Counted from the stretch's first letter, positions 5,334 to 18,296 are shown. The stretch is 20,965 nt of DNA from Candidatus Woesearchaeota archaeon (GCA_019323195.1 JAHWHQ010000005.1:1-20965), one strand, 5' to 3'. Translations and numbers: made by a program. Notes: generated by a model not told the origin, from the letters alone.

Positions 5334-5405
5334 AAATTTCTATTATCGCAAAGTTTATATATAAGTTATACATAGGTCTAACTAGAGTATAACTAGGTGG
5401 TGATA

Positions 5406-5980: not shown

Positions 5981-6003
5981 AAGAGGTGGTAGGGAGACAG
6001 ATA

Positions 6004-6690
6004 ATGGAACTCCCGCTGCACGAGCATCTGGATGAATTAAGGAAAAGGTTCATTATAGTCATCGTTTTCCTGTTCATTTTCTTTATTGTCGGTTTCTTAT
6101 TTTCAGGCTTTTTTATAAAAAAGATAATCCATGACCTGGTCTTTATAGAGAATGTCAGGATAATCGGCCTAACCCCTATCGAGTATTTTTTGACGCAGGT
6201 AAAGGTAGGGTTCCTTATATCCTTTATAATAACCCTCCCGATAATAATCTACCAGCTATTGGTCTTTATAAGCCCTGGCATGAACAGAAGAGAAAAGAAA
6301 AGTATTAAGCTGATACTGCCTTCATTTATCCTGCTGTTTTTGATAGGGGTTGTCTTCACCTATTTTATCTTCCTTCCTGTTGCAGTCTATTTCCTTGGAA
6401 ACCTGTCAAAAGGGATAATAGAGAACATATGGTCTATTGACGCCTTTATCAATTTCGTATTGCTGAGCTGCCTGTCTTTCGGCCTGATATTCCAGCTGCC
6501 CCTGCTCCTTATAACCCTGAACAGGATAGGCATAATAGATGCCAAAAGCTTAAGGACGTACAGGGCGCATACCTATGTCATTATATTTATATTATCCGCC
6601 GTAATAACCCCGCCTGATGCCATCACACAGCTGATAATCGCGCTTCCTCTGGTGATGTTGTATGAGGCAAGCTTATTGATCATAAGGTAA
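6004..6690 (+). CDS. tatC: twin-arginine translocase subunit TatC, 228 aa from the ATG at 6004 (track start 5986 is GTG)
   Basis: The N-terminal HLDELRKRFI motif is followed by six hydrophobic segments with the TatC pattern (ISPGM..REKK, LLFLIGVVFTYFIFLP, SAVITPPD). It starts 6-24 nt after the PIN stop. Confidence 0.85.
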   Translation: MELPLHEHLDELRKRFIIVIVFLFIFFIVGFLFSGFFIKKIIHDLVFIENVRIIGLTPIEYFLTQVKVGFLISFIITLPIIIYQLLVFISPGMNRREKKSIKLILPSFILLFLIGVVFTYFIFLPVAVYFLGNLSKGIIENIWSIDAFINFVLLSCLSFGLIFQLPLLLITLNRIGIIDAKSLRTYRAHTYVIIFILSAVITPPDAITQLIIALPLVMLYEASLLIIR

Positions 6691-7657: not shown

Positions 7658-9151
7658 TCACTCCTCAAACACAAAAGCCTGGTAGGTATAGACCTCTGTA
7701 GAGGTATCCTCCCAGCAGTCTGGCAACATCCCTCCCTTCCTGCACAAACTCAACAAAAACTCATCTTTCGCACCAAAATTAGCCCAAACCTGCGGAAGAT
7801 AGGTTGACTGCTTATAGCCCTGCTTAAGGACAACGCCGTCAACCATGGGCCTTAGCTTATCCAGCAGATCCTCACCTGAAGAGAACTCCAGCCTCTGAGG
7901 CACTGTCAGGACAGATATCTCAATGTTGATATCCTCCATCTCATCATAAACAACAGGCTCAAATCTCCTGTCATTTACAGCTGCGCTTACTGCATTGTCC
8001 ATGACGCACTTATAGAGCTCCTCCTGCGGCAGGATATGGCCTATGCAGCCTCTCAGGTTATGGTCCTTATTGAATGTCGTAAAACATCCTTTTACCTCCT
8101 TCAAAGCAGGTGTCAATTTTTCCTCATCTACCTCAGGCATTTTCCCTGTCTTAAGGTACTGCTCAGCTGTCTCCCTTGCAAGCCCTAAAAGAAATCCCTG
8201 ATCCTCTGCTGTTAATGGCTCATCATTATCCGAAGACCTGGCTGTTGATCCCTTATCCCCTTCACTGATAAATGCTATCGCAGAATATCCTACAACACTA
8301 TCCATATTCCCGCTAACATCACCAGAATTCGCATAATAAAGTATGTACGGCTTCCATCCATTTCTCTGCGCTATCTTAAGCAGGGTTGATACTGCAGAAG
8401 GCGCATCTATCTCAGCCTTAAATATCCCTTCAGAATCAAGGTTTAGAATCCTGTCAAGTGCATAATAATCAAGCTGTTTTGCCTCATCATAGCTATGGTA
8501 ATGCGACATGTCAACGCTTACGACAAGCAATGTACTATCATCGATATGCTTCCCAAGGATGTCTGCAAAAGCATCTGGCTCAACACTGCCGACAAGTACA
8601 GGAACAAGCTCAAAGTCACCTAAAGTCTGCTGAAGAAAAGGAAGCTCTATCTCAAGCGAATGCTCTTCTGCATGAGCCTCTGGCACATTATTTATCATCT
8701 CCTCTTTCAGAAGCCTTTTTGCTGTTTTAGACAGCTTAACCTCTCCAAGAGGTGTCTTGTAATGAGTAACATCCAGGATAGAGGCCCCTGATAAGGGATA
8801 ATGGTGTGAAGGGCCTAACAGAATAACCTTATCATGATCAGAATTAAGCTGCCTGAACGCAACAGCTGCCACCTGTCCTGAAAAGCTGTATCCTGCATGG
8901 GGGACAATAACAGCCCTGACAGTGCCATTAAAGTCAGCTTTCCTTACATTACCTAAGTAGGTGTCTACTGCTGCCTGTAGCGTTTCCATATCGCCAGGAT
9001 ACCATGATCCTGCCACTGCTGTATCCCTTACTTTCTTTTTCTGCAACGTAAAGTTATTTGTTGACTTGTATGTAAGGATTATAAGAAACAGTATTAAAAA
9101 AGCTGCAAATAGGTAAAGATGCTTTTTCTTTATTTTTATCCTGCTTTTCAT
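7658..9151 (-). CDS. fused AmmeMemoRadiSam system protein B (Memo-like, aa ~43-295) + protein A (AMMECR1, aa ~312-497) with N-terminal signal anchor, 497 aa
   Basis: Memo signature: AGSWYP, VPHAGYSFSG, SVDMSHYH, GYSAIAF. AMMECR1 signature: GCFTTFNKDHNLRGCIG, YLPQVW. The N-terminus is MKSRIKIKKKH followed by the 17-residue hydrophobic LYLFAAFLILFLIILTY. Confidence 0.9.
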   Translation of the reverse strand: MKSRIKIKKKHLYLFAAFLILFLIILTYKSTNNFTLQKKKVRDTAVAGSWYPGDMETLQAAVDTYLGNVRKADFNGTVRAVIVPHAGYSFSGQVAAVAFRQLNSDHDKVILLGPSHHYPLSGASILDVTHYKTPLGEVKLSKTAKRLLKEEMINNVPEAHAEEHSLEIELPFLQQTLGDFELVPVLVGSVEPDAFADILGKHIDDSTLLVVSVDMSHYHSYDEAKQLDYYALDRILNLDSEGIFKAEIDAPSAVSTLLKIAQRNGWKPYILYYANSGDVSGNMDSVVGYSAIAFISEGDKGSTARSSDNDEPLTAEDQGFLLGLARETAEQYLKTGKMPEVDEEKLTPALKEVKGCFTTFNKDHNLRGCIGHILPQEELYKCVMDNAVSAAVNDRRFEPVVYDEMEDINIEISVLTVPQRLEFSSGEDLLDKLRPMVDGVVLKQGYKQSTYLPQVWANFGAKDEFLLSLCRKGGMLPDCWEDTSTEVYTYQAFVFEE

Positions 9152-9255
9152 AGTGTCAGTAACATGCCAATAATGAAAATCAAAGGTATTAAATTTTTAT
9201 ATAGTTTAATATATAGTATAAAGAATATAAATTTTTAAATAGCAATATAATTTAT

Positions 9256-9282
9256 TGTATTAAATATAATACATTTAATACA
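9256..9282. promoter_or_regulatory. perfect 10-bp inverted repeat (tgtattaaat N7 atttaataca) abutting the SD of the RHH antitoxin gene
   Basis: Verified by hand. It ends at the aggtgat SD preceding the ATG at 9292, a plausible autoregulatory operator for the RHH protein. Confidence 0.4.
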
Positions 9283-9291
9283 GGTGATAAC

Positions 9292-9591
9292 ATGGCAGCA
9301 ACTGTTACAACAAGGCTACCTAATGAACTAAATAGGGAGTTAAATAAGATATCAAAAATAGAGAATCTGGACAAATCAGCAGTAATGAGAAGATTGCTTG
9401 CTGATTCCATAAAGAGGTGGAATGAATACTATGCATTAGCCATGTATCAAAAAGGTATTTTCTCTACAGAGCAGGCAGCTGATTTTATAGGTGTTTCACT
9501 ATGGAGGTTTTCCGACATGTTAAATAAAAACAAGACACCAATAAGCTATGATGTAGAGGAGTTTGAAAAAGACCTGAAAAACATAAAATGA
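9292..9591 (+). CDS. antitoxin-like protein: N-terminal ribbon-helix-helix plus UPF0175-like C-terminal domain, 99 aa
   Basis: TTRLPNELNRELNKISKIENLDKSAVMRRLL is CopG/RHH-like. QKGIFSTEQAADFIGVSLWRFSDMLNKNKTPISYDVEEFEKDL resembles UPF0175. An ATGA overlap links it to the next gene. Confidence 0.7.
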   Translation: MAATVTTRLPNELNRELNKISKIENLDKSAVMRRLLADSIKRWNEYYALAMYQKGIFSTEQAADFIGVSLWRFSDMLNKNKTPISYDVEEFEKDLKNIK

Positions 9592-10076
9592 CTGTAAGCA
9601 ATTCTACTGTATTGATAAACCTGATTAAGATAGGCAAGGTAGATCTAATAAAAAATATTTATAAGAATATAACAATAACAGGCGTTATCAGAAAAGAGGT
9701 AACTAGAGAAGATGAATTATATAAAAATGAGATAAGGGTTTTTAATGAGTTAGCAGGGAGTTTTATCATAATAAAAAATCCGGCAAACTTGAAAGATTTT
9801 GGGCTTCATAAGGGAGAAAATTCATGTTTATCCCTATGCAAAGAGATAGATGATATAACCTTTCTATCAGATGATAAAAATGCAAGAAAAGCAGCAGACT
9901 TCCTGGGAATAAGAGTTATAGGAACTTTGGGAATATTAGTCTCAAATCTGAAGAAGAAAAAGCTCAATAAAAAAGAATTCTTTACCATATTAAGAAAACT
10001 GATTGACAAAGGTTTTTATATTTCCACTGAATTGTTTGCAGCTGTTGAGGAGTATGTGAATAAGATTATTCTTTAG
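9588..10076 (+). CDS. DUF3368 / PIN-like predicted nucleic-acid-binding toxin partner, 162 aa
   Basis: STVLINLIKIGKVDLIKNIY, HKGENSCLSLC, LSDDKNARKAA and GIRVIGTLGILV match the DUF3368 (COG2405) pattern, which is usually paired with UPF0175. Confidence 0.7.
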   Translation: MTVSNSTVLINLIKIGKVDLIKNIYKNITITGVIRKEVTREDELYKNEIRVFNELAGSFIIIKNPANLKDFGLHKGENSCLSLCKEIDDITFLSDDKNARKAADFLGIRVIGTLGILVSNLKKKKLNKKEFFTILRKLIDKGFYISTELFAAVEEYVNKIIL

Positions 10077-10088
10077 TTGTCTAACCAC

Positions 10089-11303
10089 TTACCACACGCC
10101 CGCAATACCTTCCCCGCAGAACTTACAGCTTCCACCCATTAAATTATTTTCTGTTATCACATAGCCGTTTCTTCCTACAACTGTCTTCCCGCACTTTGGG
10201 CAGTATGTGCTTACTGCCTTTGTCCCTGGAAGGTTTCCTATATAGACGAACTTAATCCCTTCCTCCATAGCAGTCTCCCTTGCCTGGTTCAGCACATCTG
10301 CCGGAGTCGGAGGAAGATGCGTAAGCTTATACTGCGGATGGAACCTTGAAAAATGAAGAGGGTAATCATCAAATCCGTTCTTATGCAGCCACACTGCCAT
10401 ATCCCTTATCATGTCAGGGTCATCTGTCCACGTAGGGACTATAAGGTTGGTGATCTCAAACCATATGCCCTCTTCCTTTGCTGTCTTAAGCGCATTTAAG
10501 ATGGGCTTAAGGGAGCCTGAATTAAGCTCATGGTATATCTCATCGCTAAATCCCTTAAGGTCTATATTGGCTGCGTCTATAACCCTGCACAACTCCCTTA
10601 AAGGCTTTTCATTTATATAGCCGTTAGTCACCCACACGTTTTTCAGTCCCTCCTTCTTTGCCAGCTTTGATGTATCATACATGTACTCATAAAAAGATGT
10701 AGGCTCTGAATAGGTATAGGCTACCGAAGGGCATTTATTCTCCAGGGCAGCCTTGACAACTGCCTCAGGCATCAGGTCATAGTTTTTTGTCTCTTCAGGC
10801 TGGAACTGCGATATGCTCCAGTTCTGGCAGTTCAGGCATCGTAATGTGCATCCTGCTGTCGCAATAGAAAAGATGGCAGTAGAGGGAAGGAAATGGAACA
10901 GCGGCTTTTTCTCTATAGGGTCGATATGCACAGCGCAGGGATTGCCGTAAGCCAGCGTGTATAATCTTCCCTGAATATTCACCTTATTCCTGCATATGCT
11001 TCTATCTCCTGGCTCAAGGCTGCATCTGTTAGGGCATACATTGCACTGCACATTATCCCCGGCTTTAGTGTAATGGTAAGCCTCCCTGCTCCATCTCCAC
11101 AATTCATCAGGGGCAGCTCCCTTAAATGTCCTGCTGAGGGAAGAGGGTTTTCTTCCAAATAGATAGCCATAACCATAAGCAGCTGTAGCAAGCCCTCCCA
11201 GGCCTATAAGGCTGTATTTGAGAAATTCCCGTCTTGAGATTTTTCTGTCAAAGAACCTTTCTGCAGGATTCTTCATCTTTTTTTCAGTTTTCTTCTCACC
11301 CAT
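10089..11303 (-). CDS. AmmeMemoRadiSam system radical SAM enzyme with N-terminal twin-arginine (Tat) signal, 404 aa
   Basis: The radical SAM cluster motif is CTLRCLNCQNW (Cx3Cx2C). An N-terminal Cys cluster (CNVCPNRC...C) and a C-terminal zinc ribbon (CPKCG...CKFCG) are typical of the PflA-like AmmeMemoRadiSam family. Residues 23-29 are S-R-R-E-F-L-K (nt 11217-11237), followed by the hydrophobic YSLIGLGGLATAAYG. Confidence 0.9.
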   Translation of the reverse strand: MGEKKTEKKMKNPAERFFDRKISRREFLKYSLIGLGGLATAAYGYGYLFGRKPSSLSRTFKGAAPDELWRWSREAYHYTKAGDNVQCNVCPNRCSLEPGDRSICRNKVNIQGRLYTLAYGNPCAVHIDPIEKKPLFHFLPSTAIFSIATAGCTLRCLNCQNWSISQFQPEETKNYDLMPEAVVKAALENKCPSVAYTYSEPTSFYEYMYDTSKLAKKEGLKNVWVTNGYINEKPLRELCRVIDAANIDLKGFSDEIYHELNSGSLKPILNALKTAKEEGIWFEITNLIVPTWTDDPDMIRDMAVWLHKNGFDDYPLHFSRFHPQYKLTHLPPTPADVLNQARETAMEEGIKFVYIGNLPGTKAVSTYCPKCGKTVVGRNGYVITENNLMGGSCKFCGEGIAGVW

Positions 11304-11330
11304 TTTTTCAGATATTATAAAACCCGGTTC

Positions 11331-11960
11331 TTATTTACTGCCTGTCTTTTTAACAACCTTCAGCGCCAGATCACCTGCACACCCGACAGGGCATATATAA
11401 TTGCACCAAAACCGCGGAATAAAAAAAGACAGCAGGAATATTATTGAAGCTGCAGCAAAGGTAACAACAACAAACTGGTACCTGCCTATGAAAAAAGGAT
11501 TCTTAAACCTTTCATTAAAAAGGACCAATAAGACAAGGATAACTGTAAAAGATAAGAATAGATAGCTTACATAAATAAGCCAGCCTGGCAGCTTGAGCCT
11601 TTTTCTGCATACCTTTGCCTGGTAATCCTGCAAGGTCCCAGGAGGGCAGAGCCTATAGCACCAGGATCTTCTGTCAAGGTTCAACAGCAAAACAGACGGG
11701 ATAAGAAACGGCCTTAGCTCGCCAAAAGCGCATCTTCTGGGGCATGCCCTGCAGAATATGAAAGGCACCTTAAAATGGCATTTTATAAAAGGTATTGCCG
11801 CCACTGGGAAGAATATGGCAAGATAGATATTTTTTAACAGCTTATTATCCATCCAGTTCTTCCTGTACAGCTTAAGCAGGACAATTACAAAAGCAAAGAT
11901 TACAGATATATATACCAGGATAAAATAATCTTGGGTAAGGAACAGGTCAAACAACCTCAT
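11331..11960 (-). CDS. polytopic membrane 4Fe-4S-binding protein, NapH/MauN-like (Fer4_5-type CxxxCP motifs), 209 aa
   Basis: It has about 5 hydrophobic segments and 10 Cys, including FCRACPRRC, WCYRLCPPG and RFWCNYICPVGC. Its start codon overlaps the stop of the upstream zinc-ribbon ORF (ATGA). Confidence 0.8.
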   Translation of the reverse strand: MRLFDLFLTQDYFILVYISVIFAFVIVLLKLYRKNWMDNKLLKNIYLAIFFPVAAIPFIKCHFKVPFIFCRACPRRCAFGELRPFLIPSVLLLNLDRRSWCYRLCPPGTLQDYQAKVCRKRLKLPGWLIYVSYLFLSFTVILVLLVLFNERFKNPFFIGRYQFVVVTFAAASIIFLLSFFIPRFWCNYICPVGCAGDLALKVVKKTGSK

Positions 11961-12130
11961 TTTTTCCCTTTAGATATCTTCTTCAGCTTCTCTCTGATCT
12001 TTCCAAAGTCGATAGGGCTTATATCCGGCTTTTCTGCCTTGTCTACATCCTTGCTCAGGTCCTGCTTGCAGAAATCACAGTACCTCTCATGCTCTCTCAG
12101 CTCCCTTCCGCAGTAATGGCATTTTGTCAT
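11957..12130 (-). CDS. small zinc-ribbon protein, 57 aa (not in the ORF track)
   Basis: Hand translation gives MTKCHYCGRELREHERYCDFCKQDLSKDVDKAEKPDISPIDFGKIREKLKKISKGKK, with a CxxC-x10-CxxC motif. The ATG at 12130-12128 overlaps the TGA of the SdpI-like gene. Its TGA at 11959-11957 overlaps the ATG of the Fe-S membrane gene. Confidence 0.65.
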   Translation of the reverse strand: MTKCHYCGRELREHERYCDFCKQDLSKDVDKAEKPDISPIDFGKIREKLKKISKGKK

Positions 12131-12774
12131 TTTTTATCACCCTCTTTCTGGTATTGGACGTATGAATAGACAAATAAGATAACAATAACAGAGAGCAAAG
12201 GAGCTATAATAAACCAGACAAACTGTTCTGGGAAGAAGATGGAAGACAGCATCACCAAAGCAGAAAGCTTAAAGAGTTTTGACCCCAACCGATGTGTCTT
12301 GTTCCACACATCCTCACTGGCCAGTGTCCAGGGCGTCCTTATGCCTATAAAATAATTCCTTTTCGCGAATTTCAGCATATAGCCTATATAGAACAAGAAT
12401 ACAGATAACGAAGGGATCATGATATAAACCATATTTATGATAATCCGGAAATTTGGCAGAAGCATTGCGATGTATATTGCACTGAAAAAAAGGATAAAAA
12501 CAACCTTAAAGCCATAGAAATAGCCCTTAAATTTTTCAAAGTTCTCCTTGTAGACCATGATCTTAGGAAGGAATAAGAACAAAAGGTAAATTCCTGCAAG
12601 AAAAAGTGGTATCAAGAACAATCCGGCAAACCTGCCTCCATAACCGTCTATCTCTCCAGCAGAATTCCAGTGGACCGGCATCCTTTCCGGCATTTTTGGG
12701 TACAGGTACACCGATGCAGCAAAGATCAGGATTATGAATATGATCAGGGGGAGTTCTTTCTTGTCAATTTCCAT
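12127..12774 (-). CDS. DUF1648 + SdpI-family integral membrane protein, 215 aa
   Basis: MPVHWNSAGEIDGYGGRFAG is the DUF1648 signature. NYFIGIRTPWTLASEDVWNKTHRLGSKLF is the SdpI/YfhL signature. There are about 6 hydrophobic segments. Confidence 0.8.
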   Translation of the reverse strand: MEIDKKELPLIIFIILIFAASVYLYPKMPERMPVHWNSAGEIDGYGGRFAGLFLIPLFLAGIYLLFLFLPKIMVYKENFEKFKGYFYGFKVVFILFFSAIYIAMLLPNFRIIINMVYIMIPSLSVFLFYIGYMLKFAKRNYFIGIRTPWTLASEDVWNKTHRLGSKLFKLSALVMLSSIFFPEQFVWFIIAPLLSVIVILFVYSYVQYQKEGDKK

Positions 12775-12795
12775 AAATCAATACAGAGATAAAGT

Positions 12796-12803
12796 TATAT
12801 AAA
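12796..12803 (-). promoter_or_regulatory. TATA-box-like element (tttatata on the minus strand) about 26 nt upstream of the ATG at 12774
   Basis: Leaderless-type geometry with no SD. It lies between the giant gene's T-tract and the SdpI-like start. Confidence 0.45.
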
Positions 12804-12816
12804 AACATATCGGAAG

Positions 12817-12840
12817 ATAAAAAAGAAAAAATAAAAAAGG
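12817..12840 (-). terminator. oligo-T tract (T6-A-T6-C-T6 on the minus strand) starting 4 nt after the giant gene's stop codon
   Basis: Archaeal intrinsic termination typically uses T-runs. The sequence was read directly. Confidence 0.45.
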
Positions 12841-12842
12841 AA

Positions 12843-15800
12843 TTATCTGCCCTTTTTCTTCATAACCAGATAGATAACCAACAGGCAGATTAAGACCACT
12901 GCCAGGACAGCAAATAAGGCAGTAAATACCAGGTTATATTGCTCTACCTGTGAAGGTGCAAGCGCTTCAGGTATCTCTCCTCTTTCAGCCTCTAAGCCAA
13001 TCTGCTCATATTCAGGAGCTCCCTGCTTTACCCAGACGCTGCCGTCCCATTTCCAGTTAACCCCGTCATTGTTCCTTATCTCTCCTACAGACCTTCCCGC
13101 CTCTGCAGGAGGCTGTGGGGAATAAGCGCAGCTCTGCCTTGTAGTTGGCTTGTATTTAACAGTTCCGCAGTTCTTGTAATCCCTGCATATCCTGGTCATC
13201 TGTCCATCCTTGCTGCATTCGCTCCATGATGTGCATACCCAGTTTTCCTTGCACTCTGTAGATACCGGCACCCCTTCAGTTGTATCAGAATAGCCGACAC
13301 AGTCAGGGTCAGCAGGATAATCTATCAGGCCGTCGCCGTCATTGTCGATGCCGTCCTTGCACTGGGCAACAGTATTGCCGCCGCCTCCGCCGCCTCCGCC
13401 GCCGCTTGTAGTCCCGCTGCTTGGAGCCGGCGCTCCGTCGCCCCAGCTGCTGAACTCGCAGTTAGGGACTGTCCATTCACTTACGTCAGTACTGTTATGG
13501 TAGCCTATCTTGCTTGACTCATTAGTCCTGTTCTTGCATGTCAAGGAATCACTTTCATCCCCGCAGTGCCATAGTTCAGTGTTATTGCCAGGGATGTAGA
13601 CCCTGCACTCCTCAGGCCTCAACTTATCCCTTATGTCGTCAAACTTATCCTTCTCTGCTTTGACAAAATCAGCTGTTCCTCCGCCAGCCTTGTTTACAGT
13701 TGACTTCTCGAAATCGCCTTCATCAACTGTCCTGGAGTTCCCTGCCAGCGTCCTTGGAGTTACATTGACCAGCTTTATCCCTGCATTCGTCGTATTATCG
13801 ACAAACTCTATGTCCAGGGTCTCATTATACCACACCAGCAGTCCGGCAGCCTTGCCGCAGTCCAGGCAGCCCTGTGTATAATTCTGGCCTTCATGGTTCA
13901 TGTTTACATTCCATCCTTCAGGGATATCGTCAAACCTCACTACCATCCTGCAGTCAGGGCAGTCCTTCCTGCTGGATGTCTTGGCAGTTGTAAAATTCAG
14001 CGTCCTGCTCTTTGCTGTATTGTTGGACTTATCCGTCATCTGTACCTTGTAAAAATAGGTCGTTCCGTTGGCAAACTTATAGTTAACCCCGCCTGTAATG
14101 TTCCTTACATCAATAGAATGCCTCTTGTCAACAGTATTGTCAGTCACGTTAATAGCAGTTGTCAGATTGCATCTGCTGTTGTTTCCGCAGAATATCACTG
14201 TTATATTGGTTGACTCATCAGTATCTATGGCGATATGCCCTCCGTCAGGGTATTCATCGATCTCTTTGTGCACCAGCTTAGGTGCTGTAGTATCCTCAAC
14301 CCCTTCCCATGTACTTAAGCAGAACCAAAAATCCTTGCAGTCACTATCCTCGCAGTTGGTCAGGCCGTCACCATCCTCATCCCCTGATCCTTGGAAGCAG
14401 TCTTCTATCATGAAGAACCCGTATTTCTGGAAGCCTCCGCAGTCAGGGTCGTCCTTTGCCTTTGACCCGTCTCCATCCATATCGCACTCAGGGCACATGC
14501 AGTCCTCAAACCTAAAGTCAAACTGGTTAGGGGAATAGTAGCTAGGGCCTGCATAATCCAGAGGGCTGTTATAGTCTCTTGAGCCGTTCGCTGCAGCCAC
14601 CATGACCCTCATATCCTCAGTAGGGTCGTATAATGCGGTGAAAGTATTGAGGTCGCTCTTCTGTATGCTTATCATACCCCCTCCTACCATGTCACATACA
14701 GCCTTTTTCCAGCTTGACAGCATGATCTCTGCAGCTGTCCAGTTGCCGTTCTGGCACCTGTATGCCACCCTGGTTTCCTTCAGCTCGCCGCTGGACATGA
14801 CGCCCACATAGTTCAGCCTGAACTCAAAACCAGGATAAGAGCTGTCATTTATCGCATTGCAGCCGCCGGTTGCATCCCCGTCTGTATCAAGGTACCAGTA
14901 AAACCTTGTTGTCTTGGTTCCTGTTGTAGGCACTAGTAATGGATTATCCCATGATGTTCTTGTACTTTCCCCGTTGCATATGGCAGCATCCTTAATAGAG
15001 TGTACTGAGATGCCAAGCCCCCAGTTGTCAGGTTCGTCCTTTGTCCCGAACGACCTTATGTCAGAGTAGTGGGCAATACTGGAATTCCGGCCATCAAAGC
15101 CCAAAGATGTCGGCGGCTGGGACATCATATCCCCCTGAAACATCATACCCATCATCTTGCCTTCACACCAGCCGCTTCTCATCATGCATCCGGGCTCATT
15201 AGTGCAGGCAGTTGAATCACCGCTCAATGACGAGTTAAAGCATTTGGGTTTGCAGTAGCCCGCATTATCCCATGAGCAGAAGCTGTTTCCGGCTGTGCAT
15301 AGTGCTGCGCTGCTCTGCCTTGATGAGTTCATATTGCACTCCCATGCCTTGTAGTCACACCAGCTGTTTCCTGTCGGGTCTGTCCACCAGGAGCAGTTGC
15401 CTTCTGCCTGGCAGGAAGTCTGGTTCTTATCCTTGCAGTAATTGGAAGTATCCACGTCACAGAACTGCCCCTGCTCTTCCATCCACATGCAGCTGCTTTG
15501 GTTATTGCATTGTGTCTGGTCATTTTCAAATTTCCAGCAGTCATCCATCATGACTACGCCCATTCCACCTCCACCTACTCCTCCAGGCATGCATATGCCC
15601 GCACTCCATTGGCAGGAGTCCTTACCCAAGCATTGGCTTTGGGTCAGGGATGAATTGAAGCAGTGCGGCCTGCAGGCATAGCTCTGCATCCACTCATCAT
15701 AGTTCCATACGCAATAATCCAGCTGAGCGCATGCTGTCTCATTCCTGCTAAAACAGGTGTCTACCTTTAAGGAGCAGAAGCTTTCTATGCGCCATTCGCA

Positions 15801-18296
15801 GTCAGCATTAGCTTCACATCCGCTCCTGTCAAAATCATACATCATGCAGTTGGTAGACAGGGTATAATTCTTCCTGTTGCAAAACCCGCTGCTTGTCCAT
15901 GAGCAACTCGCGTTATTAGGGGCAGTAGTGCAGGATACGTTATTCAGGCCGTTGCATATGCTAAACTGGCTCTGGTTCATATCGCACATCCCTCCTGTAG
16001 GGGGAATATCCCACTGGCATCCTTCTGTGTTAGTGCAGCCGTTCTGATCATCGGCATACATCCAGCAGTTTCCTCCTATCATCTCGCACCATTCCCCGTC
16101 GCTGTTGTTAACCCACGCGCACATAGGGTCCGGATTGCATGTATTATTATCTTCATACATGCCGCAATTGCTCATAAAACTCCCTCCGCAGAAATCCCCG
16201 CCGAAGCATTTGGAATCCCCGCAGTCGATATAGCCGTCGCCGTCATTATCCTCCCCGTCATAACACAGCTCTGTAGAGCCTCCGCTGGTTCCCTCCTCGA
16301 CGCACATCCCGTTGCTCCATGTGCAGTTCTTTCCAGAGCCTAGCCCGCCCTTGTCCCTGCATGAGGTGTCTGTAAAGCATTCCCCGCAGTCTTCAGTGCA
16401 GCCCTCCTTGTTCTGGGAATCGCACCATCCCTTGCTTGAATCATCAGGGTCAGCAAACCATGTGCAGTTGGCAGCGCTGTTCTTGCATGCAGTCATGGCC
16501 TCATTTACAGTCTTTCCCATATAAGTACAGACAGAGCATTTAGTATTGCAGTCGCCGCCCCCTGATTTCTTATATTCCTGCTTCTCCACGCATAGGCCTA
16601 TCCCGTTAGGCGCATAGGTGTCTGCCTTGAACGTGCAGTAGCCAAGCGGAGAATCCTCGCAGGATGATTTGGCGTTAGCTGATGTGACATTCTTTCCGCT
16701 GGCATCCCTGAACTCGCATGCCCAGCATACCTCTTTGCATGACTTGGCTCCGGCCCCAACCTTGGGCTCGCACCATCCAAAAGGCACTGTCTGGTTTCCG
16801 TTGCAGTAATACTCGACAACCCATGATCCTCCGGTATCCTCGCATTGTTTCTTGTTGGTTATCTCCTTCACATCATTAATATTCTCCTTTTCCATAAGCC
16901 TGTCATAGCACTTGCTGCTGGAATTATCCCATGCGCATGGCATGTACCATGGGTCTCCTGCTATCTTCCGGCATTTTGAAGGGCTGTCAAGGACATTATA
17001 ATCAACGCAGTAATGCGCTCCATCCCCGGGATCCTCAATATTATCCCAGCACTTTTTTGACATAGGCGCCTTATTGCAGCTGCTTCCGTTCCATGAGCAG
17101 CACCCTCCTAAAAAAGGAACCTCCTTGCAGAACGTATTATTGACTATATCAGTGCACCTTATCCCATTGACAATATTGGAGTTATTGCTGGCATTCTCCT
17201 GGCAGGCAGCAGCGCTGGCATTATAAAAGCATCCCCTTACCTGGTTGCATCGTGTTGAGTTGTAATCCATGATCCAGCATCCTGTCTTCATAAAATCCTG
17301 GTCCATGTCAAAATCATTGAAGCCGATCTGTATCGGATCCCTGCATGTACTGTCAGATTTATTATAGATGCAATAATAGGTGTCCATGCATCCTTTCTCA
17401 TTATTATTATACATAGTGCAGCCTGCGCTCATATCCTCCTCGCAGTAGGGATCATGATAGGTGCAGTTCAGGCCATAAAGGGTTCCGTTACCCACACAAG
17501 CATCCTGGCCTTCCCCATACCAGTTCCAGCATCCTACCTCCTCGCACCATCCGTAATTCTCCATGTAATTCCATTCACAGTTATCCTTCAGCTGGCATGT
17601 AGTCTTGTCCATTATGTTCCAGCATCCTTCCTGGTTGCACCATGGGTCATTATAGGTGCAGCTGAGGTTATAGGCATTATTCTGGCATGCAGATGAGTTT
17701 GTATAATCCCATATCCAGCAGTTGATCTCCTCGCAGTATTGGTATTGTGAATTCCAATTGCAGTTTAAGGTAGTTGCTCCTGTGCATTCCCCGGGAGTAT
17801 TGAAGTTCCAGCAGCCCTTTTCATAGCAGAAATTCCCGGAGCTGTCCCACTGGCAGGCATTCCCCTTATAGTCTGTCGCTGAGGTGCAGCCTGAAGAGGT
17901 GGTCTGGTCCCAGCAGCCGGGCTTATAGCAGTATGAATAGTCTGAGTTCCAGCTGCATCCCAAATCAGTGGAATGGGCCTGGCATGATGACTGGTTATAA
18001 TAAAGCCAGCATCCTTTCTCGCTGCACCACCCGTCATTAGTCCCTCCTCCTGTCTTCCATGTGCAGCTCATGTTAGAGTCAGCAGCAGCATTGCAGTCAG
18101 TCTCATCCCAAAAATTCCAGCAGCCCAGCTGGTTGCACCAGCCTCCACCATCCGCCCATGTATCTGCCATCCATGTGCATATAGAGGACTGCGCCTCGCA
18201 GCCTGTCTGGTTTCCGTCATACTGCCAGCATTCAAAACCCGCACCGAAAACAAAAGAAACGCCCAAGACAAGAATCAACCCTACCAACCCAATCAA
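12843..18296 (-). CDS. giant secreted, C-terminally membrane-anchored Cys/Trp-rich repeat surface protein, 1817 aa
   Basis: The N-terminus IGLVGLILVLGVSFVFGA is hydrophobic and signal-like. Residues ~21-1045 are tandem ~31-37-aa 4-Cys modules. Then come a Met-rich linker, a low-Cys beta-rich region, Cys-flanked DxDxDG acidic loops, an FN3-like segment (aa ~1338-1438), Gly9, a WSxC/TSP1-like Cys knot, a TM segment (aa 1788-1811) and a KKKGR tail. My hand count gives about 146 Cys and about 50 N-x-[ST] sequons. The start codon is TTG (see findings). Confidence 0.9.
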   Translation of the reverse strand: MIGLVGLILVLGVSFVFGAGFECWQYDGNQTGCEAQSSICTWMADTWADGGGWCNQLGCWNFWDETDCNAAADSNMSCTWKTGGGTNDGWCSEKGCWLYYNQSSCQAHSTDLGCSWNSDYSYCYKPGCWDQTTSSGCTSATDYKGNACQWDSSGNFCYEKGCWNFNTPGECTGATTLNCNWNSQYQYCEEINCWIWDYTNSSACQNNAYNLSCTYNDPWCNQEGCWNIMDKTTCQLKDNCEWNYMENYGWCEEVGCWNWYGEGQDACVGNGTLYGLNCTYHDPYCEEDMSAGCTMYNNNEKGCMDTYYCIYNKSDSTCRDPIQIGFNDFDMDQDFMKTGCWIMDYNSTRCNQVRGCFYNASAAACQENASNNSNIVNGIRCTDIVNNTFCKEVPFLGGCCSWNGSSCNKAPMSKKCWDNIEDPGDGAHYCVDYNVLDSPSKCRKIAGDPWYMPCAWDNSSSKCYDRLMEKENINDVKEITNKKQCEDTGGSWVVEYYCNGNQTVPFGWCEPKVGAGAKSCKEVCWACEFRDASGKNVTSANAKSSCEDSPLGYCTFKADTYAPNGIGLCVEKQEYKKSGGGDCNTKCSVCTYMGKTVNEAMTACKNSAANCTWFADPDDSSKGWCDSQNKEGCTEDCGECFTDTSCRDKGGLGSGKNCTWSNGMCVEEGTSGGSTELCYDGEDNDGDGYIDCGDSKCFGGDFCGGSFMSNCGMYEDNNTCNPDPMCAWVNNSDGEWCEMIGGNCWMYADDQNGCTNTEGCQWDIPPTGGMCDMNQSQFSICNGLNNVSCTTAPNNASCSWTSSGFCNRKNYTLSTNCMMYDFDRSGCEANADCEWRIESFCSLKVDTCFSRNETACAQLDYCVWNYDEWMQSYACRPHCFNSSLTQSQCLGKDSCQWSAGICMPGGVGGGGMGVVMMDDCWKFENDQTQCNNQSSCMWMEEQGQFCDVDTSNYCKDKNQTSCQAEGNCSWWTDPTGNSWCDYKAWECNMNSSRQSSAALCTAGNSFCSWDNAGYCKPKCFNSSLSGDSTACTNEPGCMMRSGWCEGKMMGMMFQGDMMSQPPTSLGFDGRNSSIAHYSDIRSFGTKDEPDNWGLGISVHSIKDAAICNGESTRTSWDNPLLVPTTGTKTTRFYWYLDTDGDATGGCNAINDSSYPGFEFRLNYVGVMSSGELKETRVAYRCQNGNWTAAEIMLSSWKKAVCDMVGGGMISIQKSDLNTFTALYDPTEDMRVMVAAANGSRDYNSPLDYAGPSYYSPNQFDFRFEDCMCPECDMDGDGSKAKDDPDCGGFQKYGFFMIEDCFQGSGDEDGDGLTNCEDSDCKDFWFCLSTWEGVEDTTAPKLVHKEIDEYPDGGHIAIDTDESTNITVIFCGNNSRCNLTTAINVTDNTVDKRHSIDVRNITGGVNYKFANGTTYFYKVQMTDKSNNTAKSRTLNFTTAKTSSRKDCPDCRMVVRFDDIPEGWNVNMNHEGQNYTQGCLDCGKAAGLLVWYNETLDIEFVDNTTNAGIKLVNVTPRTLAGNSRTVDEGDFEKSTVNKAGGGTADFVKAEKDKFDDIRDKLRPEECRVYIPGNNTELWHCGDESDSLTCKNRTNESSKIGYHNSTDVSEWTVPNCEFSSWGDGAPAPSSGTTSGGGGGGGGGNTVAQCKDGIDNDGDGLIDYPADPDCVGYSDTTEGVPVSTECKENWVCTSWSECSKDGQMTRICRDYKNCGTVKYKPTTRQSCAYSPQPPAEAGRSVGEIRNNDGVNWKWDGSVWVKQGAPEYEQIGLEAERGEIPEALAPSQVEQYNLVFTALFAVLAVVLICLLVIYLVMKKKGR
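13377..13403 (-). repeat. (GGC/GGA)9 trinucleotide tract encoding Gly9
   Basis: The plus strand reads gccgccgcctccgccgcctccgccgcc. It encodes G1632-G1640 of the giant protein. Confidence 0.9.
17427..18236 (-). repeat. eight consecutive clean copies of the coding tandem repeat C-W-x(7-9)-C-x(5-10)-C-x-[WY]-x(4-10)-C-x4
   Basis: C-W pairs fall at aa 23, 59, 96, 128, 162, 193, 225 and 256, a spacing of 31-37 aa. On the plus strand this appears as a recurring CCAGCA(N)CC, the reverse of GGN-TGC-TGG, every ~93-111 nt. Degenerate copies continue to about aa 1045 (nt ~15162). Confidence 0.85.

What the first reader, a model, noticed from the sequence alone, without database searches (positions are those of the whole stretch)
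7658..18296. Candidate extracytoplasmic AmmeMemoRadiSam maturation system adjacent to a giant Cys/Trp-repeat surface protein
Seen in sequence:
- The radical SAM member carries a consensus Tat motif.
- Memo and AMMECR1 are fused and start with a signal anchor.
- Three genes lie immediately upstream on the same strand: an SdpI/DUF1648-like membrane protein, a 57-aa zinc ribbon and a NapH/MauN-like Fe-S membrane protein. They are chained by two ATGA stop/start overlaps and sit 27 nt from the radical SAM start.
- The next gene upstream, 68 nt away on the same strand, is a 1817-aa secreted protein with about 146 Cys in about 30 C-W modules.

Established knowledge:
- AmmeMemoRadiSam is a conserved three-part system with no known substrate, and its eukaryotic relatives are intracellular.
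- Tat exports folded, cofactor-loaded proteins.
- NapH/MauN-type proteins are membrane Fe-S proteins serving periplasmic redox enzymes or cofactor maturation.

Inference:
- The module may act on the outer face of the membrane.
- The Fe-S membrane protein may supply electrons.
- The Cys/Trp repeat protein may be a client, for example for cross-link or redox maturation.

Caveats:
- A T-tract plus a TATA-like box separates the giant gene from the operon, so they are probably separate transcripts.
- The source of SAM outside the cytoplasm is unexplained.
- Adjacency may be coincidental.
Basis: partly seen in the sequence, partly recalled or inferred. Interest (0 to 1): 0.85.

Follow-up and report, generated by a model that had tools for sequence, protein, structure and literature searches.

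The report
Exported Memo-AMMECR1-radical SAM membrane system
A tiny archaeon, like many anaerobic bacteria, carries a version of the unexplained Memo/AMMECR1/radical-SAM enzyme trio whose parts all bear export signals and sit beside the Tat export genes and a 14-helix membrane protein with a SAM-type binding domain, which suggests radical-SAM chemistry outside the cytoplasm; the giant cysteine-rich surface protein next door is not a conserved partner.

Summary
The sequence facts in the finding hold. The radical SAM gene (TIGR04337) has a textbook SRREFLK twin-arginine signal. Memo and AMMECR1 are fused behind a signal anchor. SdpI, zinc-ribbon and Fer4_5 genes are chained upstream, and an 1817-aa, 146-Cys protein lies 68 nt further up.

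Comparison with about 105 related loci changes the picture. The exported form is a widespread clade (DPANN, Altiarchaeota, Bacteroidales, Desulfobacterales, Verrucomicrobiota, Omnitrophota). Tat-type radical SAM genes co-occur with signal- or lipobox-bearing Memo-AMMECR1 fusions.

It is in the window at 1806-3965, and its soluble domain is predicted to face outward. tatA and tatC are also in the window and lie within 2.4 kb of the system in 13 of 15 archaeal-type loci.

The Fer4_5 protein is a real accessory restricted to one lineage. It is fused to the 14-TM protein in several relatives. In other lineages a small two-histidine membrane protein occupies its position.

SdpI is peripheral. The giant Cys/Trp gene is a lineage-specific insertion with only three relatives found among 5.8 billion proteins.

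Export, SAM supply and substrate are all inferred, not shown.

The parts
10089..11303 (-). AmmeMemoRadiSam radical SAM enzyme with an N-terminal twin-arginine (Tat) signal. It has the CX3CX2C motif (C152/C156/C159), an N-terminal 4-Cys motif and a C-terminal Cys4 ribbon.
   Evidence: TIGR04337 scores 356 bits. SRREFLK plus 21 uncharged residues. The RR motif is in 109/120 homologues. The Cys residues are invariant. NCBI calls the start at M10 (P0001, 395 aa).
7658..9151 (-). Memo-AMMECR1 fusion protein with an N-terminal signal anchor: a K/R-rich n-region followed by a 17-aa hydrophobic stretch.
   Evidence: TIGR04336 scores 233 bits and TIGR04335 scores 187 bits. Archaeal homologues all have the same anchor or a lipobox. 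Bacterial homologues have cleavable Sec signals.
1806..3965 (+). 14-TM membrane protein (7 TM, spermidine-synthase-like Rossmann domain, 7 TM). It is the conserved fourth component, and its soluble domain is predicted to lie outside the membrane.
   Evidence: PF01564 scores 82 bits. NF037959 scores 79 bits. A homologue lies in 30/36 Tat-type loci and 0/9 signal-less loci. AF2 gives pLDDT 90.8 and a 7+7 helix layout. Foldseek matches spermidine synthases. K/R bias across 47 homologues supports the topology.
5166..5333 (+). tatA
   Evidence: PF02416 scores 61.6 bits. tblastn with TatA proteins from relatives finds it.
5986..6690 (+). tatC
   Evidence: PF00902 scores 200 bits. TIGR00945 scores 183 bits. 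tatC lies no more than 2.4 kb from a system gene in 13/15 informative archaeal-type loci.
11331..11960 (-). Small Fer4_5 membrane protein with a conserved C-x7-C-x2-C-x3-C motif and two CX3CP motifs. It is a lineage-specific accessory and a candidate transmembrane electron input.
   Evidence: PF12801 scores 43.8 bits. The Cys residues are conserved in 8 homologues. It is fused to the C-terminus of the 14-TM protein in P0187/P0190/P0191/P0217 and in L103-L105. It is adjacent to the radical SAM gene in 9 loci.
11957..12130 (-). 57-aa Cys4 zinc-ribbon protein with no TM segment. It travels with the Fer4_5 protein and the radical SAM gene in this lineage.
   Evidence: Homologues precede Fer4_5 or the radical SAM gene in L081, L083, L091, L097, L102 and L103. 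Pfam zinc-ribbon hits are below threshold.
12127..12774 (-). SdpI/DUF1648 membrane protein. Its association is peripheral: it is linked in only three genomes, one of which has no radical SAM gene nearby.
   Evidence: PF13630 and PF07853 match. It is found only in the window, L081/L092 and L097/L098.
12843..18296 (-). 1817-aa secreted, C-terminally anchored Cys/Trp-repeat glycoprotein candidate. It is a neighbour, not a conserved part of the system.
   Evidence: Residue counts are. NF033662 (acidic double-disulfide repeat) scores 46.9 bits. There are only 3 homologues of the C-W region. It is absent from all related loci, except that L083 shares the C-terminal 225 aa. GC is 0.47-0.52, against about 0.30-0.45 in the rest of the window.
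9292..10076 (+). UPF0175/DUF3368 toxin-antitoxin-like pair inserted between the radical SAM and Memo-AMMECR1 genes. Not part of the system.
   Evidence: Pfam hits. Absent at this position in L081 and L086-L088.
5397..5980 (+). A 72-aa ORF with no Pfam match plus a PIN-domain protein, a likely antitoxin-toxin pair, inserted between tatA and tatC. Not part of the system.
   Evidence: PF01850 matches the PIN ORF. The 72-aa ORF has no Pfam hit. tatA and tatC are adjacent in L081, L083, L085, L086 and L088.

Best explanation
The window encodes a scattered but complete copy of an exported, membrane-associated variant of the AmmeMemoRadiSam system.

Proposed mechanism:
1. The PFL-activase-like radical SAM enzyme folds and receives its Fe-S clusters in the cytoplasm.
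2. It is then carried across the membrane by the Tat translocase, whose tatA and tatC genes lie next to the system.
3. The fused Memo-AMMECR1 protein is inserted or exported separately through its signal anchor. Relatives use a cleavable Sec signal or a lipobox instead.
4. Both then work at the outer face of the cytoplasmic membrane together with a conserved 14-TM protein. That protein's spermidine-synthase-like, adenosyl-binding domain also faces outward.
5. In this Woesearchaeota lineage a small Fer4_5 Cys-cluster membrane protein, together with a cytoplasmic Cys4 ribbon protein, probably feeds electrons across the membrane to the radical SAM cluster. Other lineages have a small two-histidine membrane protein in the same gene position.
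6. The substrate is most likely a membrane or envelope component common to archaea and bacteria, such as a lipid or a lipid-linked molecule. It is not the neighbouring giant Cys/Trp protein, whose gene is a lineage-specific insertion.

Shown here: gene content, family membership, signal motifs, co-variation, linkage and fusions.
Inferred only: actual export, the topology, the electron path, any role of the 14-TM protein in SAM supply, and the substrate.
For: 1. Family membership is above curated cut-offs for all three core domains.

2. The Tat consensus is conserved. 109/120 homologues have RR.[FLIVMYW][LIVMFGA] in the first 70 residues. R25 and F27 are at least 90% conserved while the rest of the N-terminus varies. 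In the window protein the motif is followed by 21 uncharged residues. The background rate is 12/1295.

3. Signals co-vary between partners. In 80 GTDB loci, every Tat-type radical SAM with a detectable full Memo-AMMECR1 partner has a partner with a hydrophobic signal (27 scored plus 2 that were regex artefacts). Five signal-less radical SAMs pair with signal-less partners (Fisher p=0.005). Bacterial partners show AxA cleavage sites. Archaeal partners show anchors or lipoboxes (LVGC, LSGC).

4. tatA and tatC are in the window. tatC lies within 2.4 kb of a system gene in 13/15 informative archaeal-type loci from Woese-, Nano-, Aenigmat- and Altiarchaeota.

5. The fourth component is in 30/36 Tat-type loci and 0/9 signal-less loci. 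AF2 gives 7 TM, a spermidine-synthase fold and 7 TM at pLDDT 90.8. Short-loop K/R counts put both termini on one side and the soluble domain on the other, in the window sequence and averaged over 47 homologues. The residues that align with the adenosine-binding positions of spermidine synthases are conserved: E318 43/47, D345 47/47 and D358 46/47.

6. The Fer4_5 protein is fused to the 14-TM protein in four database proteins and three metagenome loci, and is adjacent to the radical SAM gene in nine loci. An HMM of the small 2-His membrane protein (weak DUF4405/cytochrome b561 similarity) hits 23 loci. The hits lie directly upstream of the radical SAM gene or fused to the 14-TM protein, and none is in the Fer4_5 lineage.

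7. All 80 radical SAMs keep CX3CX2C whatever their signal class.

8. Every taxon involved is an anaerobe. This fits an oxygen-labile enzyme working outside the cytoplasm.
Against: - No SignalP, TatP or DeepTMHMM run was possible. Topology rests on motif rules and the positive-inside rule.
- No radical SAM enzyme is known to me to act outside the cytoplasm. SAM and a low-potential reductant are not known to be available there.
- Nine loci (mainly Omnitrophota) carry Sec-like or lipobox N-termini without RR on the radical SAM. This is hard to reconcile with Fe-S loading.
- Six loci pair a signal-less radical SAM with a signal-bearing Memo-AMMECR1, so the two need not share a compartment.
- The catalytic Asp residues of spermidine synthase and the GGGDG Asp are not conserved across the 14-TM family, so its chemistry is unknown.
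- Relatives of the Fer4_5 protein also occur with no radical SAM within 10 kb (L095, L097, L100, L101).
- Known Fer4_5 proteins such as NapH are reported to hold their CX3CP motifs on the cytoplasmic side (from memory). Here the side of these motifs is unresolved, and the AF2 model of the fusion was uninformative for that part.
- In the window the system is broken up by three mobile-type insertions and may be decaying.
Confidence: 0.65

Rival explanations
1. The N-terminal hydrophobic segments are only membrane tethers. The catalytic domains of the radical SAM, Memo-AMMECR1 and the spermidine-synthase-like protein all stay on the cytoplasmic face, where SAM and reductant are available. The system modifies a membrane lipid from inside.
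For: - Radical SAM chemistry needs SAM and low-potential electrons, which are cytoplasmic (established knowledge).
- Six loci have a signal-less radical SAM.
- Omnitrophota radical SAMs lack RR.
- The CX3CP motifs of NapH-type Fer4_5 proteins are reported as cytoplasmic (from memory). The fusion constrains the Fer4_5 Cys loop and the spermidine-synthase-like domain to the same side unless an extra short segment crosses the membrane.
Against: - The S/T-R-R-x-F-L-K consensus is conserved in more than 100 homologues.
- tatA/tatC are linked to the system.
- Partners carry AxA cleavage sites and lipoboxes, which imply translocation of the mature domain.
- The charge bias places the n-regions inside.
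Confidence: 0.17
2. The giant Cys/Trp-repeat surface protein is the client. Its Cys or Trp residues are cross-linked or otherwise matured by the exported radical SAM/Memo/AMMECR1 module.
For: - It lies on the same strand, 68 nt away, in the window.
- In L083 a surface protein sharing the C-terminal 225-aa anchor module occupies the same slot.
Against: - The C-W region has only three relatives (E<1e-5) among 5.8 billion proteins, whereas the exported system spans many phyla.
- No C-W or other Cys-rich giant lies near the system in about 105 other loci.
- In L081, L091, L097 and L102 the slot between AsnC/GlnA and the module holds other genes or none.
- The gene has its own T-tract and TATA-like signals and a distinct GC content.
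Confidence: 0.04
3. The SdpI, zinc-ribbon and Fer4_5 genes form an independent membrane module, for example a stress or redox sensor. It merely sits beside the radical SAM gene in this lineage and plays no part in the AmmeMemoRadiSam reaction.
For: - The triad occurs next to AsnC/GlnA with no radical SAM within 10 kb in L097/L098.
- Fer4_5 occurs alone in L095, L100 and L101.
- None of the three is found in the 80 GTDB loci, apart from one weak Fer4_5 hit.
Against: - There are Rosetta-stone fusions of the Fer4_5 protein to the 14-TM system component.
- In L103 the zinc ribbon stays upstream of the radical SAM even though Fer4_5 is fused elsewhere.
- A different putative redox membrane protein occupies the same position in other lineages.
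Confidence: 0.14

Closest known systems
AmmeMemoRadiSam system (TIGR04335 AMMECR1-like, TIGR04336 Memo-like, TIGR04337 radical SAM), as defined in TIGRFAMs/NCBIfam
   Same: All three domains score above curated cut-offs. The genes are clustered. CX3CX2C and the accessory Cys motifs are present.
   Different: - This version carries export signals on both proteins.
- Memo and AMMECR1 are fused.
- A conserved 14-TM spermidine-synthase-like partner, tatA/tatC linkage and a membrane redox accessory are added.
- The family descriptions I know, and the accessible literature, treat the system as cytoplasmic and link it to RNA base or isoprenoid modification.
Tat-exported Fe-S redox enzymes with a membrane electron-transfer partner (for example NapG/NapH, and NosZ with NosR)
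   Same: The logic is the same. An Fe-S protein folds in the cytoplasm and is exported by Tat. It is paired with a Fer4_5-type membrane protein carrying CX3CP motifs (established knowledge).
   Different: - The exported protein here is a radical SAM enzyme, not a ferredoxin or a reductase.
- The Fer4_5 protein fails the NapH/MauN model (17 vs 213 bits).
- It lacks the C-terminal two-cluster ferredoxin domain.
- It has an extra C-x7-C-x2-C-x3-C motif.
Pyruvate formate-lyase activating enzyme and other glycyl-radical activases
   Same: These are the closest characterised radical SAM relatives (TIGR02493 58 bits). They share the radical SAM core.
   Different: They score far below cut-off. No glycyl-radical enzyme is in the neighbourhood. 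The partners here are Memo and AMMECR1. The enzyme here carries an export signal.
Membrane-bound polyamine aminopropyltransferases (PRK03612) / 'fused MFS/spermidine synthase' (NF037959)
   Same: The N-terminal 7 TM plus spermidine-synthase fold aligns over residues 7-398 (229 bits). NF037959 passes its cut-off. Foldseek TM-score is about 0.7 to solved spermidine synthases.
   Different: - It scores below the PRK03612 and speE cut-offs.
- It has an extra C-terminal 7-TM bundle.
- The GGGDG Asp and the D-x-x-D-P catalytic Asp are not conserved across the subfamily.
- The soluble domain is predicted to be extracytoplasmic.
- The gene is tied to the AmmeMemoRadiSam genes.
Cytoplasmic radical SAM maturases of exported proteins (anaerobic sulfatase maturases; HxsB/C of the HXS antiphage system)
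   Same: Radical SAM chemistry serves an extracytoplasmic end product (PMC13128918; established knowledge for anSME).
   Different: In those systems the enzyme stays in the cytoplasm and the substrate is exported. Here the enzyme itself carries the Tat signal.

Membership tests
AmmeMemoRadiSam system | Radical SAM protein scoring above the TIGR04337 cut-off, with a CX3CX2C motif | tested here: met
   356 bits against a cut-off of 220. C152-x3-C156-x2-C159 is invariant in 27 aligned homologues.
AmmeMemoRadiSam system | Memo-like protein (TIGR04336) and AMMECR1-like protein (TIGR04335) above cut-off | tested here: met
   233 bits (cut-off 26) and 187 bits (cut-off 99), on one fused 497-aa protein.
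AmmeMemoRadiSam system | The three components are encoded together | tested here: met
   They lie on the same strand, 937 nt apart, interrupted by an opposite-strand toxin-antitoxin pair. In relatives L086-L088 they are directly adjacent.
Tat substrate | Twin-arginine consensus (S/T-R-R-x-F-L-K) followed by an uncharged h-region of at least 13 residues near the N-terminus | tested here: met
   S-R-R-E-F-L-K at residues 23-29 (residues 14-20 from the NCBI start), followed by 21 uncharged residues. Conserved in 109/120 homologues.
Tat substrate | Tat translocase encoded in the genome | tested here: met
   tatA at 5166-5333 (PF02416, 61.6 bits). tatC at 5986-6690 (TIGR00945, 183 bits).
Tat substrate | Positive call by dedicated predictors (TatP, SignalP 6, TATFIND) and experimental Tat-dependent export | not testable with these tools
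   No such predictor or experiment was available. Only a hand-written TATFIND-like rule was applied.
NapH/MauN family (TIGR02163) | Score above the family cut-off; four TM segments plus a C-terminal domain with two [4Fe-4S] clusters | tested here: not met
   17.1 bits against a cut-off of 213. The protein is 209 aa and has no ferredoxin-type CxxCxxCxxxCP domain.
Fer4_5 domain proteins (PF12801) | CX3CP motif following a TM helix; Pfam score above gathering threshold | tested here: met
   43.8 bits against 22, in two stretches. WCxxxCP appears twice and is conserved in 8 homologues.
SdpI/YfhL family | PF13630 plus DUF1648 above threshold | tested here: met
   70.9 and 66.3 bits. No functional test of immunity or signalling was possible.
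Spermidine synthase (speE, TIGR00417 / PRK03612) | Score above the equivalog cut-off; conserved GGGDG and D-x-x-D-P catalytic residues | tested here: not met
   84.8 vs 249.6 bits and 228.7 vs 472 bits. Across 47 homologues the GGGDG Asp is absent and the first catalytic Asp is N/D/L, although the window copy itself has D-L-P-D-P.
Fused MFS/spermidine synthase (NF037959) | Score above the subfamily cut-off | tested here: met
   78.9 bits against 40. NCBI names the identical protein in this way (P0124).
Acidic double-disulfide repeat proteins (NF033662), for the giant protein | Repeat model above cut-off | tested here: met
   46.9 bits against 41, at residues 1642-1669 and one further stretch. 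This covers only the C-terminal part. The C-W modules match no Pfam family.

The most novel reading that the evidence does not exclude
A complete radical-SAM reaction centre operates outside the cytoplasmic membrane in a wide range of anaerobic archaea and bacteria.
- The Tat pathway exports the cluster-loaded enzyme.
- A dedicated 14-TM protein presents or translocates SAM (or a SAM-derived adenosyl compound) through its outward-facing spermidine-synthase-like domain.
- Interchangeable small membrane redox proteins (Fer4_5 or a 2-His, haem-b-like protein) deliver low-potential electrons.
- Memo-AMMECR1 completes a modification of an envelope lipid or lipid-linked molecule.

This would be the first extracytoplasmic radical SAM system. 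It would also give a direct experimental handle on the unknown biochemical function of the Memo and AMMECR1 families.
Probability: 0.35. Interest if true: 0.9.

Novelty: new variant of a known kind. Interest (0 to 1): 0.75.

Why it matters
- Radical SAM enzymes are regarded as cytoplasmic because they need SAM, Fe-S assembly and a low-potential reductant. A large, conserved clade with Tat signals, signal-bearing partners, its own SAM-fold membrane protein and membrane redox accessories would extend this chemistry to the periplasm or cell surface. It would also raise a testable question: how do SAM and electrons get there?
- Memo and AMMECR1 are conserved from archaea to humans and are linked to disease, yet they have no agreed biochemical function. 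A membrane-facing variant with a defined set of partners narrows the search for the substrate to envelope or lipid molecules.
- The system is retained, next to tatA and tatC, in DPANN archaea with very small genomes. This suggests it is important for their cell surface, and that it may be a main reason these organisms keep a Tat pathway.

Tried and rejected
1. The giant protein as client. The three homologues of its C-W region were found. Both recoverable contigs end inside the gene, so the downstream side could not be read. The idea is rejected on lack of conservation in all other loci.

2. AF2 model of the 14-TM::Fer4_5 fusion (P0187), meant to place the Cys motifs relative to the membrane. 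The Fer4_5 part had pLDDT below 50 because only four sequences cover it, and no coordinates are returned. It was uninformative.

3. Foldseek of the 14-TM model against the PDB. Only the soluble domain gave hits (spermidine synthases). The top 50 hits gave no lead on the TM bundles.

4. Literature.
- Searches for AmmeMemoRadiSam, Memo+AMMECR1+radical SAM, radical SAM+Tat, DPANN+Tat+radical SAM and membrane spermidine-synthase-like proteins found no description of an exported variant.
- The key comparative paper, Burroughs et al. 2019 J Biol Chem (PMC6664185), is not held. From memory its abstract links Memo contexts to 'nucleotide base and aliphatic isoprenoid modification'. It may already mention some of these contexts, and I could not check.

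5. Searching the 80 GTDB loci for SdpI, zinc-ribbon and Fer4_5 homologues found none, apart from one weak Fer4_5 hit in L071. These genes are therefore not general components.

6. A relaxed search for the 2-His membrane protein in the window and its closest relatives found nothing credible.

7. The window has no tRNA and no Rfam match.

8. A script that always took the last basic pair as the Tat motif mis-assigned 'KK' pairs. I rely on the simpler count.
Full report
**Source and layout**

The window is a contig of a Candidatus Woesearchaeota archaeon (DPANN). The radical SAM protein and the 719-aa membrane protein are 100% identical to NCBI entries from a 20,967-nt contig.

The minus strand carries, in transcription order:
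- an 1817-aa ORF, 18296-12843
- an SdpI/DUF1648 protein, 12774-12127
- a 57-aa Cys4 ribbon, 12130-11957
- a 209-aa Fer4_5 protein, 11960-11331
- a 404-aa radical SAM protein, 11303-10089
- a 497-aa Memo-AMMECR1 fusion, 9151-7658, after an opposite-strand UPF0175/DUF3368 pair (9292-10076)

**Check of the observation**

- The three core domains pass the curated NCBIfam cut-offs: TIGR04337 356/220, TIGR04336 233/26, TIGR04335 187/99.
- The radical SAM N-terminus contains S-R-R-E-F-L-K followed by 21 uncharged residues and then basic residues.
- The Memo-AMMECR1 fusion starts MKSRIKIKKKH followed by a 17-residue hydrophobic stretch.
- The two ATGA overlaps, the 27-nt gap and the 68-nt gap with T-tracts and a TATA-like box are all there.
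- The big protein has 146 Cys, 67 Trp, 52 sequons, about 32 C-W motifs, a short hydrophobic N-terminus and a C-terminal TM anchor.

Three corrections apply.
- The toxin-antitoxin pair splits the radical SAM gene from the Memo-AMMECR1 gene.
- The Fer4_5 protein is 'NapH-like' only through its Fer4_5 domain. It fails TIGR02163 (17 vs 213 bits).
- The finding's coordinates exclude three relevant genes elsewhere in the window.

**The Tat signal is a conserved feature of a large clade**

- Of the 120 best homologues (57-100% identity; Woese-, Nano-, Aenigmat- and Altiarchaeota, Theionarchaea, Methanofastidiosia and unnamed metagenome proteins), 109 have RR followed by a hydrophobic pair within the first 70 residues. 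Several others have KR.
- In an alignment of 27 of them, R25 and F27 are at least 90% conserved, although the rest of the N-terminus is variable.
- A few homologues follow the motif with a lipobox-like sequence, for example P0022 ...FGMSSCKK and P0024 ...FGIPACKK.
- A scan of one genome per GTDB species returned 80 loci. By my rule, 56 radical SAMs have an RR or KR motif plus an h-region, 9 have a hydrophobic N-terminus without RR, and 15 have none.
- The Tat-type loci come from Bacteroidales, Desulfobacterales, Desulfomonilia, Verrucomicrobiota, Omnitrophota, Planctomycetota-like and other anaerobes, as well as archaea.
- By a strict rule, only 12 of 1295 unrelated ORFs in the same loci look Tat-like.
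- All 80 radical SAMs keep CX3CX2C and the N-terminal CxxCPxxC motif.

**The partner protein co-varies**

- Wherever a Tat-type radical SAM has a full Memo-AMMECR1 gene nearby, that protein has an N-terminal hydrophobic signal. 27 were scored as such. Two apparent exceptions, L025 and L044, were artefacts of my regular expression, and both have a signal or lipobox on inspection.
- Bacterial examples look like ordinary cleavable signal peptides, for example L011 ...ACLACIQHVGPACA|DN, L020 ...GSVAA|DN and L033 ...YTQA|SA.
- Archaeal examples are signal anchors or lipoboxes: L103 LLVGC, L104 LLSGC, L044 FLVGC.
- Five radical SAMs without any extension (L030, L034, L045, L052, L056) pair with Memo-AMMECR1 proteins that also lack a signal.
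- Six loci are mixed, with no extension on the radical SAM but a signal on the partner. This remains unexplained.

- In bacterial operons a gene of about 700-810 aa lies between the Memo-AMMECR1 and radical SAM genes.
- It is a multi-TM protein with a spermidine-synthase domain (PF01564).
- The window has the same gene at 1806-3965 on the plus strand (82 bits to PF01564; NF037959 'fused MFS/spermidine synthase' 79/40; PRK03612 229 bits, below its cut-off).
- A homologue lies in 30 of 36 Tat-type loci with adequate flanks and in 0 of 9 signal-less loci.
- AlphaFold2 with 56 homologues gives a confident model (pLDDT 90.8, pTM 0.90): seven TM helices, a complete spermidine-synthase fold (residues about 223-510) and seven more TM helices.
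- Foldseek matches solved spermidine synthases with target TM-scores near 0.7.
- Averaged over 47 homologues, the short loops on the side of the N- and C-termini hold 2.3-3.8 Lys+Arg each. Those on the side of the soluble domain hold 0-1.1. In the window sequence I count about 26 against 6, using the helix boundaries. By the positive-inside rule the spermidine-synthase-like domain faces outward.
- The residues that align with the adenosine-contacting positions of spermidine synthases are conserved (E318 43/47, D345 47/47, D358 46/47). The GGGDG aspartate and the catalytic D-x-x-D-P aspartates are not conserved across the subfamily, though the window copy has D-L-P-D-P.
- I infer that the domain binds an adenosyl compound. 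I do not infer that it makes polyamines.

**Tat genes are part of the neighbourhood**

- The window encodes tatC at 5986-6690 (PF00902 200 bits; TIGR00945 183 bits) and tatA at 5166-5333 (PF02416 61.6 bits).
- The two are separated by an inserted pair: a 72-aa ORF with no Pfam match and a PIN-domain protein.
- The simplest arrangement, in relatives L086, L087 and L088, is: 14-TM gene, (small membrane ORF), radical SAM, Memo-AMMECR1, then tatC and tatA convergent.
- tatC lies within 2.4 kb of a system gene in 13 of 15 informative archaeal-type loci: the window, L001, L044, L081, L083, L085-L088, L094, L099, L102 and L104.
- This linkage persists across lineages whose radical SAMs are only about 50-78% identical and whose local gene order differs. 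It is genomic evidence that the Tat motif is functional.
- Compared with L081, the window is the same neighbourhood broken up by a Fic gene, two toxin-antitoxin pairs and the giant gene.

**The Fer4_5, zinc-ribbon and SdpI genes**

- None of the three occurs in the 80 GTDB loci, apart from one weak Fer4_5 hit. They do recur in the closest relatives.
  - L081: SdpI, ribbon, Fer4_5, radical SAM.
  - L083: ribbon, Fer4_5, an unknown 322-aa protein, radical SAM.
  - L085: 14-TM gene directly followed by Fer4_5.
- Four homologues of the 14-TM protein (P0187, P0190, P0191, P0217; 953-971 aa) have a full-length copy of the Fer4_5 protein fused to their C-terminus (E 1e-40 to 1e-44 over residues 4-205).
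- A metagenome scan with the Fer4_5 alignment found 17 loci. Nine are linked to the radical SAM or 14-TM genes. Three of these are fusions in operons of the form ribbon, radical SAM, Memo-AMMECR1, 14-TM::Fer4_5.
- Five loci are unlinked. These include L097/L098, where SdpI, ribbon and Fer4_5 sit beside AsnC/GlnA with no radical SAM within 10 kb.
- Eight Cys are conserved in eight homologues: C-x7-C-x2-C-P-R-x-C plus two W-C-x3-C-P motifs.
- The fusion has one linker helix. That places the N-terminus of the Fer4_5 module outside and its first short loop (+4 to +5 charge) inside, so the four-Cys motif after TM2 begins at the outer face.
- Whether the CX3CP motifs are inside, as reported for NapH (from memory), depends on whether a 13-residue hydrophobic stretch crosses the membrane. 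I could not resolve this, because the AF2 model of the fusion is unreliable there.
- In lineages without the Fer4_5 gene, a small membrane protein with two conserved histidines sits directly upstream of the radical SAM gene or is fused to the N-terminus of the 14-TM protein. It has sub-threshold similarity to DUF4405, cytochrome b561 and Ni_hydr_CYTB. An HMM built from five examples hits 23 loci and nothing credible in the Fer4_5 lineage.
This is an inference from context only.
- SdpI is found in three genomes only and is best treated as peripheral.

**The giant protein**

- Its C-W region (residues 22-522) has only three relatives at E<1e-5 among 5.8 billion clustered proteins. All three are partial proteins on short archaeal contigs that end inside the gene.
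- In L081 the slot between the AsnC/GlnA genes and SdpI holds an MscS channel and two Tricorn-like proteins.
- In L083 the slot holds an 848-aa surface protein with 1.5% Cys that shares only the last 225 residues (anchor module, 211 bits) with the giant.
- In L091, L097 and L102 the AsnC/GlnA genes lie close to the module with no large gene between.
- No other ORF of at least 250 aa in any locus combines high Cys content with C.W motifs.
- The gene also stands out by GC content: 0.47-0.52 against about 0.30-0.45 elsewhere in the window.
- The adjacency is therefore a lineage-specific insertion. A widespread system cannot have this rare protein as its general substrate.

**Mechanism proposed**

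The most likely reading is an exported AmmeMemoRadiSam variant.
1. The radical SAM enzyme is loaded with clusters in the cytoplasm and exported by TatAC.
2. Memo-AMMECR1 is anchored or released on the outer face.
3. Both act with the outward-facing domain of the 14-TM protein.
4. A small membrane redox protein supplies electrons.

The substrate should be something shared by DPANN archaea and diderm anaerobes, most plausibly a membrane lipid or a lipid-linked envelope intermediate.

Weak hints in that direction come from L083 and L081. In L083 an LplT-like MFS transporter, a phosphopantetheinyl transferase and an Aas-like acyl-ACP synthetase/acyltransferase are inserted between the radical SAM and Memo-AMMECR1 genes. 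In L081 and L083 a HAD/APP1-like phosphatase lies next to the 14-TM gene. These hints come from one lineage only.

How SAM reaches the outer face is open. The conserved pairing of an exported radical SAM with a membrane protein that displays an adenosyl-binding fold outside makes that protein the obvious candidate. An alternative is export of the enzyme with SAM already bound, giving a single turnover.

**What argues against it**

- No dedicated predictor could be run.
- I know of no precedent for an extracytoplasmic radical SAM enzyme.
- Nine loci have Sec-like N-termini on the radical SAM, for example L079 ...FLPNALA|DTP and L066 LLTAC. This is difficult to reconcile with Fe-S loading.
- The six mixed loci show that the two proteins need not be in one compartment.
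- Fer4_5 relatives also occur alone.

The cytoplasm-facing alternative keeps about one chance in six.

**Comparison with what is known, and novelty**

- The system is a member of the AmmeMemoRadiSam family by all tested criteria.
- The exported architecture, the fourth component, the Tat linkage and the redox accessories are not in the family descriptions as I recall them, nor in any paper the tools could search.
- Earlier comparative work proposed RNA base modification (PMC2034487) and, from memory of the abstract of Burroughs et al. 2019, nucleotide-base or isoprenoid modification.
- I therefore rate this a new variant of a known kind, with interest 0.75.
- The interest lies in the exported system itself, not in the link to the giant protein that gave the finding its title.

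Noticed in passing
window 5397-5980, 6790-7641, 9292-10076, 39-440: The system's neighbourhood is peppered with mobile-type genes: a 72-aa ORF plus PIN pair between tatA and tatC, a 283-aa Fic protein, a UPF0175/DUF3368 pair, and a second Fic-like ORF at the window start. Relatives (L081, L086-L088) lack these insertions.
   Followed up: partly
window 13001-18000: The giant gene has GC 0.47-0.52, against about 0.30-0.45 in the rest of the window. This could reflect its Cys/Trp/Gly-rich composition or foreign origin. It fits the gene being an insertion.
   Followed up: no
L029, L065, L066, L068, L069, L071, L074, L078, L079 (radical SAM N-termini): AmmeMemoRadiSam radical SAMs from Omnitrophota, Chlamydiae and UBP3 carry hydrophobic N-termini without a twin arginine. 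Some look like classical Sec signals or lipoboxes. All still keep every Fe-S Cys motif. No known route would load clusters after Sec export.
   Followed up: partly
L043, L049, L050, L064, L070, L072: These are 'mixed' systems. The radical SAM has no N-terminal extension, the fused Memo-AMMECR1 has a signal peptide or lipobox, and no 14-TM gene is nearby.
   Followed up: no
L086 9783-10028; L087 9693-10004; L008 4355-4684; N-termini of the 805-855-aa proteins in L024, L031, L037, L039, L041, L046, L051, L054, L057, L060, L077; L001 7601-7888: A small membrane protein of 80-110 aa with two conserved histidines recurs directly upstream of the radical SAM gene or fused to the 14-TM protein, in 23 loci. 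It has only sub-threshold similarity to DUF4405, cytochrome b561 and Ni_hydr_CYTB. It is a possible haem-b electron conduit.
   Followed up: partly
L083 11276-15275 and 17958-18707; L081 16341-17003: In L083 an LplT-like MFS transporter, a phosphopantetheinyl transferase and an Aas-like AMP-binding/PP-binding/acyltransferase protein are inserted between the radical SAM and Memo-AMMECR1 genes. A HAD/APP1-like phosphatase lies between tatA and the 14-TM gene in L081 and L083. This is a possible hint of a lipid substrate.
   Followed up: no
L081 12863-13798 (-); L094 3335-4261 (-): A 308-311-aa protein with a Tat motif plus lipobox (MEQTTRREFIVDG...FLGSC) and no Pfam match lies between Memo-AMMECR1 and tatC in two close relatives. 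The window has the Fic gene at that position.
   Followed up: partly
L097/L098 8329-10522: The SdpI, zinc-ribbon and Fer4_5 triad sits next to AsnC and GlnA, as in the window's wider neighbourhood, but with no radical SAM gene within 10 kb. The triad can therefore exist on its own.
   Followed up: partly
L089 2429-3568: A bacterial-type S-adenosylmethionine synthetase gene lies immediately upstream of one of the three homologues of the giant C-W protein. This is probably coincidence. The window has AsnC/GlnA there instead.
   Followed up: no
window 4022-4498 and 4546-4911: Two small zinc-finger proteins lie between the 14-TM gene and tatA: a very K/R-rich protein with a treble-clef finger (PF23477, 59.8 bits) and a Lar-like one. 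They are not seen at this position in relatives.
   Followed up: no
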